Positions 4,511 through 44,007 of a stretch of DNA of 64,000 bases are shown here, piece after piece. Within the stretch, counting starts at the first letter, position 1. Every line of letters begins with the position of its first letter. The DNA is taken from assembly GCF_051903065.1 (NCBI RefSeq), contig NZ_CP178438.1; one strand, given 5' to 3'. This DNA comes from Escherichia coli (GTDB lineage: Bacteria; Pseudomonadota; Gammaproteobacteria; Enterobacterales; Enterobacteriaceae). The notes beneath the pieces are model-generated. The model was not told where the DNA came from. It worked only from the letters and a program-made list of their open reading frames with translations, and ran no database searches. The position numbers and the translations under genes are program-made.

Positions 4511-6921
4511 TTGCACGCTGGTTCTGGCGCGAATGGCGTTCGCCGTCGCTATTAATTGTCTGGCTGGCGCTAAGCCTGGCGGTGGCCTGCGTGCTGGCGC
4601 TGGGCAATATCAGCGATCGCATGGAGAAGGGCTTAAGCCAACAAAGCCGGGAGTTTATGGCGGGCGATCGGGCGTTGCGCAGTTCGCGCGAAGTGCCGCA
4701 AGCATGGCTGGAGGAAGCGCAAAAGCGCGGCCTGAAAGTCGGCAAGCAGCTGACTTTCGCCACCATGACATTTGCAGGCGACACACCGCAGCTGGCGAAC
4801 GTTAAAGCGGTGGATGATATCTACCCGATGTATGGCGATCTGCAAACCAATCCCCCTGGCCTGAAACCGCAGGCGGGCAGCGTATTGCTGGCCCCACGCC
4901 TGATGGCACTGCTTAACCTGAAAACGGGCGACACCATTGACGTGGGCGATGCCACTTTGCGGATTGCCGGAGAAGTGATTCAGGAACCGGATTCCGGTTT
5001 TAACCCCTTCCAGATGGCTCCGCGTCTGATGATGAATCTGGCGGATGTCGATAAAACCGGAGCCGTGCAGCCGGGGAGTCGGGTCACCTGGCGCTATAAA
5101 TTCGGCGGCAGCGAGAACCAGCTCGACAGCTATGAGAAATGGTTGTTACCTCAGCTTAAACCCGAACAACGCTGGTACGGTCTGGAACAGGACGAAGGCG
5201 CGCTGGGGCGATCGATGGAACGCTCGCAACAGTTCCTGCTGCTTTCGGCGCTTCTGACCTTGCTGCTGGCAGTGGCAGCAGTGGCGGTAGCGATGAATCA
5301 TTACTGTCGCAGTCGCTACGATCTGGTGGCGATCCTCAAAACGCTGGGGGCAGGGCGAGCGCAACTGCGTAAGCTAATCGTCGGTCAGTGGTTGATGGTG
5401 CTGACGCTTTCAGCCGTTACCGGTGGGGCGATAGGCCTGTTGTTCGAAAACGTGTTGATGGTGCTGCTCAAGCCCGTTCTGCCTGCTGCACTACCGCCAG
5501 CCAGCCTCTGGCCATGGCTATGGGCGCTGGGCACCATGACGGTCATCTCGCTGCTGGTGGGGCTACGACCATACCGCTTGTTGCTGGCAACGCAGCCTTT
5601 ACGCGTATTACGTAATGATGTGGTAGCGAACGTCTGGCCGCTGAAGTTTTATCTGCCGATTGTCAGTGTGGTGGTTGTGCTGCTGCTCGCCGGATTAATG
5701 GGTGGCAGTATGCTGCTCTGGGCGGTGCTGGCGGGCGCGGTAGTACTGGCTTTGCTGTGCGGTGTGCTGGGCTGGATGCTGCTGAATGTACTTCGCCGCA
5801 TGACGCTGAAATCGCTGCCTCTGCGCCTGGCGGTTAGCCGCCTGTTACGTCAGCCATGGTCAACGTTAAGCCAGCTTTCGGCATTTTCGCTCTCCTTTAT
5901 GCTGCTGGCACTGCTGCTGGTGTTGCGTGGCGATCTGCTCGACCGCTGGCAGCAGCAGCTACCTCCAGAAAGCCCGAACTACTTTTTAATTAACATCGCC
6001 ACAGAACAGGTAGCACCGCTAAAAGCGTTCCTCGCGGAACATCAGATAGTCCCGGAATCGTTTTATCCGGTGGTGCGGGCGAGACTGACGGCGATTAACG
6101 GCAAGCCGACAGAAGGCAATGAAGATGAGGCGCTCAATCGCGAACTCAATCTTACCTGGCAAAATACGCGGCCCGATCATAATCCGATTGTCGCCGGTAA
6201 CTGGCCGCCAAAAGCCGATGAAGTGTCGATGGAAGAGGGGCTGGCGAAACGCTTAAACGTTGCCCTCGGTGATACCGTGACTTTTATGGGCGATACCCAG
6301 GAGTTCCGCGCTAAAGTGACCAGCCTGCGCAAAGTGGACTGGGAAAGTCTGCGGCCTAATTTCTATTTTATTTTCCCTGAAGGGGCATTAGACGGGCAAC
6401 CGCAGAGCTGGCTTACCAGTTTCCGCTGGGAGAATGGCAACGGCATGTTGACGCAACTCAACCGCCAGTTCCCTACCATTAGCCTGTTAGACATTGGCGC
6501 GATTTTAAAACAGGTCGGTCAGGTGCTGGAGCAGGTAAGTCGGGCGCTGGAGGTGATGGTGGTGCTGGTCACCGCCTGCGGTATGTTGCTGTTGCTGGCA
6601 CAGGTGCAGGTGGGAATGCGTCAGCGTCATCAGGAGCTGGTGGTGTGGCGCACACTCGGTGCGGGGAAAAAACTGCTGCGTACCACGTTGTGGTGTGAGT
6701 TCGCCATGCTTGGGTTTGTTTCCGGCCTGGTGGCCGCAATTGGTGCGGAAACGGCACTGGCAGTGTTGCAGGCGAAAGTGTTTGATTTTCCGTGGGAGCC
6801 AGACTGGCGATTGTGGATTGTTCTGCCGTGCAGCGGTGCGCTGCTGCTGTCGCTTTTCGGCAGCTGGCTGGGTGCGCGACTGGTTAAGGGTAAGGCGCTG
6901 TTCAGGCAGTTTGCGGGGTGA
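4507..6921 (+). CDS. ybbP: ABC transporter permease YbbP (FtsX/MacB-like)
   Basis: 804-aa ORF with duplicated multi-TM permease halves; coupled to ybbA. Confidence 0.9.
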   Translation: MIARWFWREWRSPSLLIVWLALSLAVACVLALGNISDRMEKGLSQQSREFMAGDRALRSSREVPQAWLEEAQKRGLKVGKQLTFATMTFAGDTPQLANVKAVDDIYPMYGDLQTNPPGLKPQAGSVLLAPRLMALLNLKTGDTIDVGDATLRIAGEVIQEPDSGFNPFQMAPRLMMNLADVDKTGAVQPGSRVTWRYKFGGSENQLDSYEKWLLPQLKPEQRWYGLEQDEGALGRSMERSQQFLLLSALLTLLLAVAAVAVAMNHYCRSRYDLVAILKTLGAGRAQLRKLIVGQWLMVLTLSAVTGGAIGLLFENVLMVLLKPVLPAALPPASLWPWLWALGTMTVISLLVGLRPYRLLLATQPLRVLRNDVVANVWPLKFYLPIVSVVVVLLLAGLMGGSMLLWAVLAGAVVLALLCGVLGWMLLNVLRRMTLKSLPLRLAVSRLLRQPWSTLSQLSAFSLSFMLLALLLVLRGDLLDRWQQQLPPESPNYFLINIATEQVAPLKAFLAEHQIVPESFYPVVRARLTAINGKPTEGNEDEALNRELNLTWQNTRPDHNPIVAGNWPPKADEVSMEEGLAKRLNVALGDTVTFMGDTQEFRAKVTSLRKVDWESLRPNFYFIFPEGALDGQPQSWLTSFRWENGNGMLTQLNRQFPTISLLDIGAILKQVGQVLEQVSRALEVMVVLVTACGMLLLLAQVQVGMRQRHQELVVWRTLGAGKKLLRTTLWCEFAMLGFVSGLVAAIGAETALAVLQAKVFDFPWEPDWRLWIVLPCSGALLLSLFGSWLGARLVKGKALFRQFAG

Positions 6922-6929
6922 TGACAGGT

Positions 6930-7250
<321 letters not shown>

Positions 7251-7339
7251 TTTTGGCAATAAATATGAAACCAACTGTCATGTCGGTTTTTTTAAAGGCC
7301 GAAGGTGGTAAACCTTCGGCCTTAGCGACGTTTCCTCAG

Positions 7340-7423
7340 TTATTCAATAAACTGACGGATCAGTTCCAGCAGCGCGATTAGCGCCTTAAGAACGATGAGA
7401 ACTTTATCGAGAAAAGTTTTCAT
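7340..7423 (-). CDS. Candidate type I toxin: 27-aa hydrophobic peptide MKTFLDKVLIVLKALIALLELIRQFIE (DinQ/TisB-like)
   Basis: Not in the ORF track (too short); hand-translated. Strong SD AAGGGAG 6 nt upstream of ATG; single predicted TM helix; an in-frame upstream ATG at 7495 would give 51 aa but lacks an SD. Confidence 0.5.
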   Translation of the reverse strand: MKTFLDKVLIVLKALIALLELIRQFIE

Positions 7424-7648
7424 CCGTTGCTCCCTTAAGGGAGAAAGACAATCACAGCTTACCCTTACGTTGCCTGTAACTATGATTTTCTTCATGTGCT
7501 AGATGAGGACTGCCTCTCTCCAAATTAGAGCACCAGAATCAGCACCACCTGTATCCTGACCAGGACTTAAAAGTACTTTTCCGCACTGCGGTAATCCCTT
7601 GAGGCAGTATCACTACTAGCGTCGGGATTGTATCGCCAACATAGCTGT

Positions 7649-7677
7649 TTGAATATGTAGGCATCCTGACTTATAAT
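7649..7677 (+). promoter_or_regulatory. Near-consensus sigma70 promoter (TTGAAT - 17 bp - TATAAT) for the candidate antitoxin sRNA
   Basis: -35 TTGAAT 7649-7654, -10 TATAAT 7672-7677, predicted TSS about 7684. Confidence 0.5.
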
Positions 7678-7683
7678 TCACTT

Positions 7684-7772
7684 GCTAGATGAGGACTGTT
7701 TCATTTCTGCCCGGAACCACCAAGTCTTGGGCGGAAAAAATAAAAAAACCGACTGTCATGTCGGTTTTTTTA
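7684..7772 (+). ncRNA. Candidate trans-encoded antitoxin sRNA (about 90 nt)
   Basis: Runs from the promoter above to the hairpin plus T-run terminator at 7749-7771; its 5' end (7683-7698 TGCTAGATGAGGACTG) is the exact complement of the toxin transcript region at 7497-7512. Confidence 0.4.
7735..7771. terminator. Bidirectional Rho-independent terminator (A-run, CCGAC-TGTCAT-GTCGG hairpin, T-run)
   Basis: Would terminate selU on the minus strand and the candidate sRNA on the plus strand; a degenerate copy lies at 7267-7293. Confidence 0.6.
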
Positions 7773-7834
7773 TATCTGTATTCTGGTGCAACCATTCTGT
7801 TCTCACGACAATCGCCGTTTCAGAATACCGCCCA

Positions 7835-8944
<1,110 letters not shown>

Positions 8945-20736: not shown

Positions 20737-20904
20737 CTCTTGCCTTTAAAGCGGATGCTATTTATTTCGTATAAGTGCGCAGTGCTCATGCCGGATGCTG
20801 CATGAGCACTATATCCTTCCTGAAAATCGCGCAAATTCTATATATTGCAGAGATCATGTAGGCCTGATAAGCGAAGCGCATCAGGCAATGTTACAAAAAA
20901 AGCC

Positions 20905-20935
20905 ACGGTATAAACCGTGGCAAAATCCAACATAG
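20905..20935 (-). terminator. Rho-independent terminator downstream of allE
   Basis: On the minus strand GCCACGG-TTTATA-CCGTGGC followed by TTTTTTT. Confidence 0.6.
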
Positions 20936-21408
20936 CTAAAAATAATCAGGCGAGTGGTATGACTTAAATCTCTACGTCGCGGTTGCAATCTTTCGAGTAA
21001 ATATAGCTGAACGCTTCACCACGCCCTACGCCATAACCAGCCTGTAAAGAATAAGCGCCCATAAAGATGTAATCGCCTTTTTTCACCGGGATCCAGTTAT
21101 TGTCGAGGTTATAAACCCCCTGACCGGAAAGAATATAGGCACCGTGTTCCTGAACGTGTGTTTCGATATAACCATGGCTGGCACCTGGTGCAAAAGAGAG
21201 GATATGCATGTTCATATCAAAACCTAACTCTTTGGGCAGAAAATCCAGCAGGATCACATCATCCATACCTTCATAGTGAATGCGTTCCAGTTCGCTGGCA
21301 TTGCCAGAAACCAGCCACGGTGCATGGCCTTCTACCAGAACATAGCGGCGCTTGGTGATGCTGCCAACTTACTGATTTAGTGTATGATGGTGTTTTTGAG
21401 GTGCTCCA

Positions 21409-43930: not shown

Positions 43931-44007
43931 GCGCCCTTAGCTCAGTTGGATAGAGCAACGACCTTCTAAGTCGTGGGCCGCAGGTTCGAATCCTGCAGGG
44001 CGCGCCA
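43931..44007 (+). tRNA. argU: tRNA-Arg (anticodon UCU, reads AGA)
   Basis: GCGCCCTTAGCTCAGTTGGATAGAGCAACGACCTTCTAAGTCGTGGGCCGCAGGTTCGAATCCTGCAGGGCGCGCCA; cloverleaf with TCT anticodon and 3' CCA. Confidence 0.95.

What the first reader, a model, noticed from the sequence alone, without database searches (positions are those of the whole stretch)
7262..7775. Candidate type I toxin/antitoxin module (27-aa DinQ/TisB-like peptide plus divergent sRNA) in the ybbP-selU spacer
Seen in sequence: (a) minus-strand ORF 7423..7340, MKTFLDKVLIVLKALIALLELIRQFIE, a single hydrophobic helix with charged ends, preceded by SD AAGGGAG; (b) plus-strand unit with TTGAAT-17-TATAAT promoter (7649-7677), about 90 nt, ending in a hairpin plus T7 terminator (7749-7771); (c) the first 16 nt of that transcript (7683-7698) are the perfect complement of 7497-7512 in the toxin gene's upstream region, roughly 20 of 22 nt with flanks. 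A small membrane peptide with a divergent short RNA pairing to its 5' leader is the tisB/istR-1, dinQ/agrB and zorO/orzO architecture. From memory the core KxxIVLxALIALLELIR closely resembles DinQ; this needs verification. I know of no annotated gene at this position in K-12, where rhsD sits instead.
Basis: partly seen in the sequence, partly recalled or inferred. Interest (0 to 1): 0.8.

Follow-up and report, generated by a model that had tools for sequence, protein, structure and literature searches.

The report
Second chromosomal DinQ/AgrB toxin-antitoxin copy
The ybbP-selU spacer of this E. coli strain holds a real small membrane-toxin gene and its antisense-RNA antidote, but it belongs to the described DinQ/AgrB (dinQ-like) family and public annotation already names the toxin, so it is a correct call rather than a discovery.

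Summary
This includes the 27-aa ORF at 7423..7340, its Shine-Dalgarno (SD) sequence, the plus-strand promoter and terminator, and the 16-nt match between 7497-7512 and 7683-7698.

The peptide passes the curated NCBIfam DinQ model (40.9 bits, cutoff 30). The small RNA passes Rfam AgrB (53.6 bits, gathering score 40). The leader, ORF and terminator align with K-12 dinQ at about 68-70% DNA identity.

It is not new:
- RefSeq already annotates this ORF as "dinQ" at this locus in about 1,300 of 5,426 complete E. coli genomes.
- Kristiansen et al. 2016 defined the dinQ-like (dql) family on chromosomes and plasmids.
- Plasmid DqlB/AgrB pairs were shown experimentally to be toxin-antitoxin systems in 2025.

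This copy differs from canonical dinQ-agrAB in several ways:
- It sits at a different locus, replacing the K-12 rhsD island.
- It has one complete sRNA gene, in the agrA position, plus a 3' remnant.
- Pairing is shorter (24 of 25 nt, counting G-U pairs).
- It has no correctly spaced LexA box, so the "damage-inducible" label is probably unearned.
- Pairing with the canonical locus's RNAs is predicted to be weak.
- About 15% of carriers have a 108-bp deletion that removes the SD, the start codon and part of the target.

Nothing was found on expression or toxicity of this copy. Interest is low.

The parts
7340..7423 (-). Toxin ORF, 27 aa: MKTFLDKVLIVLKALIALLELIRQFIE. It is a single hydrophobic helix with charged ends.
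   Evidence: Translation. NCBIfam toxin_DinQ 40.9 bits against a cutoff of 30. RefSeq annotates it as dinQ, WP_349808740.1. GRAVY 1.23.
7430..7443 (-). SD hairpin (homologue of dinQ elements 3:4): CUCCC-UUAA-GGGAG. The SD sequence AAGGGAG is at 7436..7430.
   Evidence: Sequence. The hairpin forms in the MFE fold of the full-length leader and in the cofold with the sRNA.
7497..7521 (-). sRNA target in the leader (mRNA nt 100-124), overlapping the homologue of dinQ element 2. There are 16 perfect pairs, and 24 of 25 when G-U pairs are counted.
   Evidence: It maps onto the K-12 AgrB site G88-A119 (PMC5066626).
7601..7620 (-). Predicted 5' end of the primary toxin mRNA (homologue of element 1). 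It pairs with the sRNA target region in the full-length fold. The +1 at 7620 is predicted by alignment with the K-12 +1.
   Evidence: The position is inferred by homology; no transcript data are available.
7627..7653 (-). Predicted toxin promoter: -10 TACAAT (7632..7627) and -35 TTCAAA (7653..7648), with a 15-nt spacer. There is no LexA box.
   Evidence: The -10 aligns with TATGAT (K-12) and TATAAT (plasmids). The consensus scan did not report it. LexA search.
7295..7323 (-). Toxin mRNA terminator hairpin, AAGGCCGAAGG-N7-CCUUCGGCCUU, followed by a short U tract.
   Evidence: Conserved in all four aligned loci. It forms in the MFE fold.
7649..7677 (+). sRNA promoter TTGAAT-17-TATAAT. Its -35 overlaps the toxin promoter's -35 on the other strand.
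   Evidence: overlap read directly from the sequence.
7684..7773 (+). AgrB-like antitoxin sRNA, about 88 nt: a single-stranded 5' pairing tail, an internal stem-loop, and a terminator with a T7 run.
   Evidence: Rfam AgrB 53.6 bits against a gathering score of 40. Fold z = -4.7. Stem conserved, with compensatory changes in 2 of 10 pairs across 7 homologues.
7258..7295 (+). Remnant copy of the 3' end (terminator) of an agr-type gene. It shares a 21-nt exact repeat with 7751-7771 and lies just downstream of the toxin terminator.
   Evidence: Its function is unknown. On the minus strand it forms a second hairpin.

Best explanation
This is a paralogous DinQ/AgrB-family (dinQ-like, 'dql') type I toxin-antitoxin locus. 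It occupies the ybbP-selU spacer in about a quarter of E. coli strains.

Inferred mechanism, by homology with dinQ-agrB:
1. A primary minus-strand mRNA of about 325 nt starts near 7620 and is translationally inert. Its 5' end pairs with the region around nt 100-124, and the SD sequence is locked in the hairpin CUCCC-UUAA-GGGAG.
2. Removal of roughly the first 45-50 nt frees element 2 (GGAGAGAGGC) to pair with element 3 (GUCUUUCUCC). This opens the SD hairpin and allows translation of the 27-aa inner-membrane peptide.
3. The constitutively made plus-strand sRNA of about 88 nt (7684-7771) pairs through its 5' end with element 2. The SD hairpin re-forms, translation is blocked, and the duplex is probably cleaved by RNase III.

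Unlike canonical dinQ, the toxin promoter has no LexA operator, so expression is probably not SOS-controlled.

Shown here: sequence features, family membership by two curated models, homology of every element, and cognate-specific pairing. Inferred: transcription, processing, toxicity and repression.
For: Family models: the DinQ HMM is passed and the AgrB covariance model is passed.

Homology: a four-way alignment with K-12 dinQ and two plasmid copies shows conserved -10, leader blocks, SD position, ORF core and terminator.

Folds: the full-length MFE fold has the same architecture as K-12 dinQ, with the 5' end paired to the sRNA target and the SD in a hairpin. In the +45/+49 truncations the MFE switches to a 14-bp element 2:3 duplex. 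In a cofold with the sRNA, element 2 is occupied by the sRNA and the SD hairpin re-forms, with a binding energy of -27.5 kcal/mol.

Specificity:
- The whole-RNA cognate duplex is -77.7 kcal/mol, against -45.0 +/- 3.9 for shuffled sRNA.
- In a 6x6 matrix of sRNA 5' ends against leaders, five of six cognate pairs, this one included, are best in both row and column. This shows co-variation of sRNA and target between loci.

Experimental basis for the family: dinQ/agrB in PMC3567139 and PMC5066626, and plasmid DqlB/AgrB toxicity, rescue and plasmid stabilisation in PMC12365149 and PMC12317039.
Against: - No transcript, processing or toxicity data for this copy were found in the searched literature.
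- Pairing is shorter than in every other cognate pair examined (-48.2 against -49.5 to -67.9 kcal/mol).
- The cofold binding energy (-27.5) lies between functional AgrB-dinQ (-37.1) and AgrA-dinQ (-22.9), and AgrA does not repress in vitro (PMC5066626). Antitoxin efficacy is therefore not assured.
- MFE modelling does not give a cleanly open SD in the truncated leader. The SD re-pairs with GCUCU, and P(unpaired) is only 0.20. The same modelling fails to reproduce the experimentally open SD of K-12 +44 dinQ, so it cannot decide the question.
- The toxin promoter has a poor -35 with a 15-nt spacer and was not picked up by the consensus scan.
- About 15% of carriers have a toxin-disabling deletion, which suggests the toxin is dispensable or costly.
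Confidence: 0.8

Rival explanations
1. The locus is a decaying, non-functional relic. It is homologous to dinQ/agrB but no longer expresses a toxic peptide. Weakened sRNA pairing and a weak toxin promoter would be signs of erosion.
For: It has the shortest pairing of six loci. The toxin promoter was not detected by the consensus scan, and its -35 has a 15-nt spacer. A 108-bp deletion allele occurs in about 200 of 1,326 carriers, and there is an IS200C-interrupted allele. The locus is absent from about 75% of E. coli genomes.
Against: In the intact allele the ORF, SD, SD hairpin, all three element complementarities, both terminators and a near-consensus sRNA promoter are all preserved. At least 1,124 genomes keep 80% or more of the module at 98.5% identity or higher. 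The peptide still scores above the equivalog cutoff.
Confidence: 0.12
2. It is an SOS-inducible dinQ orthologue, as the RefSeq product name ('damage-inducible type I toxin DinQ') implies. It would be regulated by LexA like K-12 dinQ.
For: The RefSeq name. The DinQ HMM is an 'equivalog' model and the cutoff is passed.
Against: No CTG-N10-CAG occurs anywhere in 7200-7850. At the position where the K-12 operator overlaps the -10, the window reads GGCGATACAATCCCGACGCT. The only CTG...CAG element (7549-7563) has N9 spacing and lies inside the transcribed leader. The near-matches have a mismatch in the CAG arm. The locus differs (ybbP-selU rather than arsR-gor), and carriers also have the canonical locus, with two places per genome.
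Confidence: 0.05
3. The sRNA's main job is cross-regulation. It would either neutralise DinQ or Dql toxins made elsewhere (canonical dinQ, or incoming plasmid dql as an anti-addiction function), or the module's toxin would be controlled by the orphan AgrA of the canonical locus.
For: All family members share leader and sRNA homology, so some cross-pairing is predicted. AgrA against the window leader gives -40.8 kcal/mol, better than AgrB at -35.3. AgrA has no known function (PMC5066626).
Against: Cross-pair cofold binding energies are weak: -10.2 (AgrB on this leader), -17.9 (AgrA on this leader) and -14.5 (this sRNA on dinQ). All are weaker than AgrA-dinQ (-22.9), which is experimentally ineffective. 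This sRNA against plasmid leaders gives -31, compared with their cognates at -58 to -68. K-12 keeps agrA without having this locus.
Confidence: 0.03

Closest known systems
dinQ-agrA/agrB of E. coli K-12 (arsR-gor spacer; Weel-Sneve 2013, Kristiansen 2016)
   Same: Both have a 27-aa single-helix peptide with the core IVLxALIALLELIR. The divergent sRNA does not overlap the toxin gene, and its 5' end pairs with the leader around element 2. The homologous leader has 1:2, 2:3 and 3:4 complementarities, and the SD sits in a hairpin. Terminator style is the same and the primary transcript is of similar length (about 325 against 331 nt). DNA identity is about 68-70%.
   Different: This copy is at a different locus (ybbP-selU). 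It starts with ATG where dinQ starts with GTG, has three extra N-terminal residues and a shorter C-terminus ending RQFIE. It has no LexA operator. It has one complete sRNA gene, in the agrA (proximal) position, plus a 3' remnant on the other side. Pairing is 24 of 25 nt including G-U pairs, against 32 of 33 in K-12. The two divergent promoters overlap at their -35 hexamers.
dqlB-agrB of conjugative plasmids (pOXA-48 IncL, pOXA-484 IncX3; PMC12365149, PMC12317039)
   Same: The family and layout are the same: a single proximal AgrB-like sRNA and no LexA box at the promoter. The C-terminal ELIRQFI[ED] motif is shared. These plasmid systems provide the experimental proof that LexA-less dql loci act as toxin-antitoxin and addiction modules.
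   Different: The window peptide fails the DqlB HMM (24.5 bits against a cutoff of 35) and lacks the 7-residue insertion of DqlB. It is chromosomal and not associated with a mobile element. DNA identity is about 67-71%.
Chromosomal dql copies in Photorhabdus (L015, L060-L062, L117)
   Same: This is the closest peptide found: MKAFIDTAIIVLKALIALLELIRAFLK, with 19 of 27 residues identical, the same length and the same MKxF[LI]D N-terminus. The conserved leader motif is the same.
   Different: The genus and loci differ, and there are several copies per genome. No AgrB match with E-value at or below 0.001 was found next to them.
zorO-orzO and tisB-istR-1 (E. coli)
   Same: Both share the architecture: a small hydrophobic toxin, a long leader that needs processing, and a divergent non-overlapping sRNA that pairs with the leader.
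   Different: No sequence homology was detected. OrzO-P scored 24.1 and 19.5 bits against a gathering score of 60. These are analogues, not relatives of this locus.

Membership tests
DinQ/AgrB (dinQ-like, dql) type I TA family | Toxin peptide matches the DinQ profile above the curated cutoff | tested here: met
   NF041472 toxin_DinQ: 40.9 bits, cutoff 30, E = 1.8e-10, full profile 1-22.
DinQ/AgrB (dinQ-like, dql) type I TA family | Antitoxin RNA matches the AgrB covariance model above the gathering score | tested here: met
   RF02891 at 7685-7773 (+): 53.6 bits against 40, full model 1-84.
DinQ/AgrB (dinQ-like, dql) type I TA family | sRNA gene is divergent from the toxin gene, lies 5' of it and does not overlap it | tested here: met
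   Predicted start sites are 7620 (-) and about 7684 (+). The layout matches K-12 agrA, pEC213_3 and Pantoea.
DinQ/AgrB (dinQ-like, dql) type I TA family | The sRNA 5' end is complementary to the leader region containing element 2, specifically for the cognate pair | tested here: met
   16 perfect pairs and 24 of 25 with G-U pairs. None of 1000 shuffles reached 16 nt. The window pair is best in its row and column of the 6x6 matrix.
DinQ/AgrB (dinQ-like, dql) type I TA family | Homologous 5' UTR with four elements able to form the mutually exclusive duplexes 1:2, 2:3 and 3:4 (SD hairpin) | tested here: met
   Alignment. Duplexes 1:2 and 3:4 appear in the full-length MFE fold. The 2:3 duplex appears in the truncated MFE fold. 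The 3:4 hairpin is restored on sRNA binding.
DinQ/AgrB (dinQ-like, dql) type I TA family | The SD sequence becomes accessible only in the processed mRNA | tested here: inconclusive
   P(unpaired) of the SD rises from 0.01 to only 0.20 on truncation. The same method fails on the K-12 positive control.
DinQ/AgrB (dinQ-like, dql) type I TA family | Peptide is toxic and localises to the inner membrane; the sRNA represses it | not testable with these tools
   Requires expression, rescue and localisation experiments. Shown only for DinQ and plasmid DqlB.
dinQ proper (orthologue of K-12 dinQ, 'damage-inducible') | LexA operator (CTG-N10-CAG) overlapping the promoter | tested here: not met
   There is no exact site in 7200-7850, and the homologous position has none. 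The K-12 control has CTGGATAATCATACAG.
dinQ proper (orthologue of K-12 dinQ, 'damage-inducible') | Located in the arsR-gor spacer with tandem agrA and agrB | tested here: not met
   It lies between ybbP and selU/mnmH and has one complete agr gene. Carriers also have the canonical locus.
DqlB subfamily | Matches the DqlB profile above the curated cutoff | tested here: not met
   NF041473: 24.5 bits against a cutoff of 35, covering only profile positions 15-30.

The most novel reading that the evidence does not exclude
A quarter of E. coli strains carry a second DinQ-type membrane toxin that is uncoupled from the SOS response and controlled by its own insulated AgrB-like sRNA. The 'damage-inducible' label would then be wrong. 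The toxin would respond to a different, unknown signal, and its presence, absence and recurrent 108-bp inactivation would reflect strain-specific selection on a depolarising or persistence switch.
Probability: 0.3. Interest if true: 0.4.

Novelty: already known. Interest (0 to 1): 0.2.

Why it matters
The practical value is small. It confirms that reading raw sequence can recover a complete type I toxin-antitoxin module.

Three modest points could be followed up:
1. RefSeq transfers the name "damage-inducible DinQ" to a paralogue that has no LexA box, and it leaves the partner sRNA unannotated.
2. E. coli strains differ in DinQ-family toxin dosage, carrying one or two chromosomal copies plus frequent plasmid copies. 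This is relevant to work on persistence, membrane depolarisation and plasmid addiction.
3. The two chromosomal circuits are predicted to be insulated from each other, which could be tested.

None of this changes what is understood about the family.

Tried and rejected
1. Genome-wide motif scan. I scanned 100,044 species genomes with the leader motif AAGTCCTGG-N9-13-GGTGGTGC. The pattern was too loose. Only Photorhabdus, Pantoea, one Haemophilus sputorum contig and one E. coli-like contig were real.

2. Thermodynamic test of the SD on/off switch. The method does not reproduce the experimentally established K-12 behaviour, so I did not use it as evidence in either direction.

3. LexA search. No exact box was found. 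The one-mismatch sites at 7645, 7666 and 7776 all break the CAG arm. I could not compute a heterology index because the Lewis matrix is not available here.

4. Whether this exact locus is among the 14 dql genes of Kristiansen 2016 or in T1TAdb. The figures and supplements are not held, so this is undetermined.

5. Anti-addiction and AgrA cross-talk ideas. I rejected these on pairing energies.

6. Covariation within E. coli. The intact alleles listed are 98.5% identical or more, so they are uninformative. I used between-locus co-variation instead.

7. The longer 51-aa ORF from the ATG at 7495. I rejected it as the product. It has no SD, it parallels the untranslated 49-aa ORF of dinQ, and RefSeq and the HMM both support the 27-aa form.

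Full report
**Setting**

The window is E. coli DNA. ybbA and ybbP end at 6921 on the plus strand. selU/mnmH occupies 7835-8929 on the minus strand and is followed by allS, allA and allR (annotated equivalent). The finding lies in the 913-bp ybbP-selU spacer. In K-12 this entire spacer is replaced by the rhsD-ybbC-ylbH-ybbD-ylbI-ylbG island. Homology to K-12 stops at window 6927 and resumes at 7833, with no remnant of the module.

- The minus-strand ORF 7423..7340 encodes MKTFLDKVLIVLKALIALLELIRQFIE. AAGGGAG lies 6 nt upstream of the ATG.
- On the plus strand, TTGAAT-17-TATAAT (7649-7677) is the only sigma-70-like site found in 7200-7850. A hairpin plus T7 run sits at 7740-7773.
- The RNA predicted between them (7684-7771, 88 nt) folds with z = -4.7.
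- The 16-mer TGCTAGATGAGGACTG occurs at both 7497-7512 and 7683-7698. No repeat of 16 nt or more appeared in 1000 shuffles of the region.
- When C-to-T differences are counted as G-U pairs, pairing between the sRNA 5' end and the minus-strand leader is 20 contiguous base pairs, and 24 of 25 over 7497-7521.

**What it is**

- The peptide passes the curated NCBIfam equivalog model for DinQ (NF041472: 40.9 bits, cutoff 30). It fails the DqlB model (24.5 bits against 35).
- The plus-strand unit passes Rfam AgrB (RF02891: 53.6 bits, gathering score 40, full-length match). This holds in a local scan and in a scan of the whole window at gathering thresholds.
- I aligned the minus strand with K-12 dinQ and with two plasmid copies (pEC213_3 'dinQ' and p1585m1_D 'dqlB'). 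The alignment shows a conserved -10 (TACAAT here, TATGAT in K-12, TATAAT on the plasmids), conserved leader blocks such as AAGTCCTGG...GGTGGTGC, a conserved SD position, the ORF core, and a GC-rich terminator with a short U tract.
- DNA identity to the canonical locus is about 68-70% over roughly 200 nt of the leader and the start of the ORF.

**Mechanism by homology**

The K-12 landmarks come from Kristiansen et al. 2016 (PMC5066626): +1, element 1 at U16-C28, +44, element 2 at G94-G106, the AgrB site at G88-A119, element 3 at U167-U178, and element 4/SD at A182-G187. I mapped these through the alignment.

- The window's predicted +1 is 7620. The sRNA target 7497-7521 coincides with the AgrB site and element 2.
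- The full-length leader folds like K-12 dinQ. Its 5' 20 nt (GCUAGUAGUGAUACUGCCUC) pair with GAGGCAGUCCUCAUCUAGC, and the SD sits in the hairpin CUCCC-UUAA-GGGAG.
- In 5'-truncated leaders (+45 to +53), the MFE structure switches to a 14-bp duplex between element 2 and element 3. This dissolves the SD hairpin.
- When the truncated leader is cofolded with the sRNA, the sRNA occupies element 2 and the SD hairpin re-forms. The binding energy is -27.5 kcal/mol.

This is the logic shown experimentally for dinQ/agrB. There is a caveat. In the truncated MFE the SD re-pairs elsewhere (P(unpaired) 0.20), and the same modelling does not reproduce the experimentally open SD of K-12 +44 dinQ. I therefore treat the on/off step as inferred rather than shown.

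**Specificity**

- Whole-RNA duplex energy is -77.7 kcal/mol for the cognate pair, against -45.0 +/- 3.9 for shuffled sRNA.
- I built a matrix of sRNA 5' ends (36 nt) against leaders from six loci: the window, K-12, two plasmids, Pantoea and a Haemophilus contig. Five of the six cognate pairs, including the window pair, are the best in both row and column. The window pair scores -48.2, against -25.5 to -39.4 for non-cognate partners. The exception is the Haemophilus sRNA, which scores slightly better on the closely related p1585 leader (-52.6 against -49.5). The sRNA and its target have therefore co-varied between loci.
- The window pair is nevertheless the weakest cognate pair. Its cofold binding energy (-27.5) lies between functional AgrB-dinQ (-37.1) and AgrA-dinQ (-22.9), and AgrA does not repress in vitro (PMC5066626).
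- Cross-pairs between this locus and the canonical one are weaker still (-10.2, -17.9 and -14.5). The two chromosomal circuits are predicted to be insulated.

**Differences from canonical dinQ**

1. No LexA operator. K-12 has CTGGATAATCATACAG overlapping the -10. The window has no CTG-N10-CAG anywhere in 7200-7850 and nothing at the homologous position.
2. One complete sRNA gene. Its distance from the leader motif (117 nt) matches K-12 agrA (129) and the plasmid and Pantoea copies (119-121), not agrB (360). The single proximal sRNA therefore looks like the basic arrangement, and K-12 agrB looks like an extra tandem copy.
3. A 38-nt remnant of an agr 3' end (7258-7295) lies on the far side of the toxin gene. 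It shares a 21-nt exact repeat with the sRNA terminator.
4. The two divergent promoters overlap at their -35 hexamers (7648-7654).
5. The peptide has three extra N-terminal residues and a DqlB-like C-terminus (RQFIE). The closest relative found is the Photorhabdus chromosomal peptide MKAFIDTAIIVLKALIALLELIRAFLK, with 19 of 27 residues identical.

**Distribution**

- The module is present at this locus in 1,326-1,331 of 5,426 complete E. coli genomes. It is always chromosomal and almost always 99% identical or more.
- Carriers also have the canonical locus (two places per genome).
- RefSeq annotates the ORF as 'dinQ: damage-inducible type I toxin DinQ' (WP_349808740.1) but annotates no sRNA.
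- The exact peptide is recorded at NCBI as 'MULTISPECIES ... DinQ [Enterobacteriaceae]'.
- About 200 carriers show less than 80% coverage of the 481-nt query. In the strain I aligned (Ecol_881) the cause is a 108-bp deletion (7401-7508) between GATGAGA and GATGAGG repeats. It removes the SD, the ATG, the first 7 codons and part of the eighth, and 12 nt of the sRNA target. It leaves the sRNA gene intact.
- One strain has an IS200C inserted in the module.
- Relatives at about 70% identity occur on 1,600 or more plasmids, mostly conjugative.

**Comparison with the literature**

- DinQ, AgrA and AgrB were characterised in 2013 (PMC3567139).
- The dinQ-like (dql) family was defined in 2016: dqlA and dqlB, on chromosomes and plasmids, with 'some strains [having] dql genes together with dinQ' (PMC5066626).
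- T1TAdb predicted antisense RNAs for those loci.
- Plasmid DqlB/AgrB pairs were shown to be toxic, rescued by AgrB, and to stabilise plasmids in 2025.
- I found no paper that mentions a dinQ-family gene at ybbP-selU. I could not check whether this peptide is among the 14 listed in 2016, because the figures and supplements are not held.

**Verdict**

The object is a member of a described family, and automated annotation already names its toxin. The only loose ends are:
- the probably undeserved 'damage-inducible' label;
- the unannotated sRNA;
- the relatively weak pairing;
- the presence/absence and deletion polymorphism.

Interest is 0.2.

Noticed in passing
window 6940-7245: An array of REP/BIME-type repeats lies between the ybbP stop codon and the module. 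There are two full naRNA4 (RF02564) matches above gathering score at 7005-7082 and 7105-7183, a partial one at 7206-7242, and an ES036 match at 6959-7001 (-). Strain Ecol_881 lacks about 200 bp of this array.
   Followed up: partly
window 7401-7508 (allele seen in L006, Ecol_881): A 108-bp deletion between the short repeats GATGAGA (7394-7400) and GATGAGG (7502-7508) removes the toxin SD, the start codon and 12 nt of the sRNA target, but keeps the sRNA gene. About 200 of 1,326 carrier genomes show the matching reduced coverage. RefSeq annotates no gene in most of them but still 'dinQ' in a few (H148, H149), which I did not examine.
   Followed up: partly
window 7258-7295 and 7739-7773: The 3' end and terminator of the sRNA gene is duplicated on the other side of the toxin gene, with a 21-nt exact repeat at 7274-7294 and 7751-7771. 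It could be a remnant of a second agr gene or a trace of how the module was inserted. The origin is unresolved.
   Followed up: partly
window 7549-7563; L004 leader: The conserved leader motif reads as CTG-N9-CAG here and as CTG-N10-CAG in DqlB plasmids (ACCTGTTTGTTCAGCCAGGA). PMC12211044 scored that exact sequence as a LexA site (heterology index 11.64) at -119 of dqlB. It lies inside the transcribed, structurally conserved leader and its spacing varies between loci. It may therefore be an RNA element rather than an operator.
   Followed up: partly
window 7648-7654: The -35 hexamers of the sRNA promoter (TTGAAT, plus strand) and of the homology-predicted toxin promoter (TTCAAA, minus strand) overlap almost completely. 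The two promoters may therefore compete for RNA polymerase.
   Followed up: no
H1/H31, NZ_CM129848.1 (strain TB06052): An IS200C (IS200/IS605 family) transposase gene is inserted within the module. The match is split into two pieces spanning about 1.28 kb.
   Followed up: no
L015, L060, L061, L062, L117 (Photorhabdus): There are several chromosomal dql-type copies per genome, encoding MKAFIDTAIIVLKALIALLELIRAFLK. One copy in L062 has an in-frame stop. No Rfam AgrB match with E-value at or below 0.001 was found nearby, so their antitoxin RNAs, if any, have diverged beyond the model.
   Followed up: partly
L051 (Haemophilus sputorum CCUG 13788, 1,319-bp contig): This contig carries a DqlB-like ORF (MMNLLIIVLRAVLAIANALIAIQKLIE) together with an AgrB match (50.2 bits). 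That places the family outside Enterobacterales, unless the tiny contig is plasmid-derived or a contaminant.
   Followed up: no
L002 1534-1617 (K-12 agrA) against the window leader: AgrA, whose function is unknown, pairs better with this paralogue's leader than AgrB does (-40.8 against -35.3 kcal/mol for the 5' 36 nt; cofold -17.9 against -10.2). It is still weaker than the AgrA-dinQ pairing, which is ineffective.
   Followed up: yes
window 20823-20957 and 43931-44004: Other Rfam matches above gathering score in the window: STnc480 (20891-20957, +), ES036 (20823-20865, +) and a tRNA (43931-44004, +).
   Followed up: no
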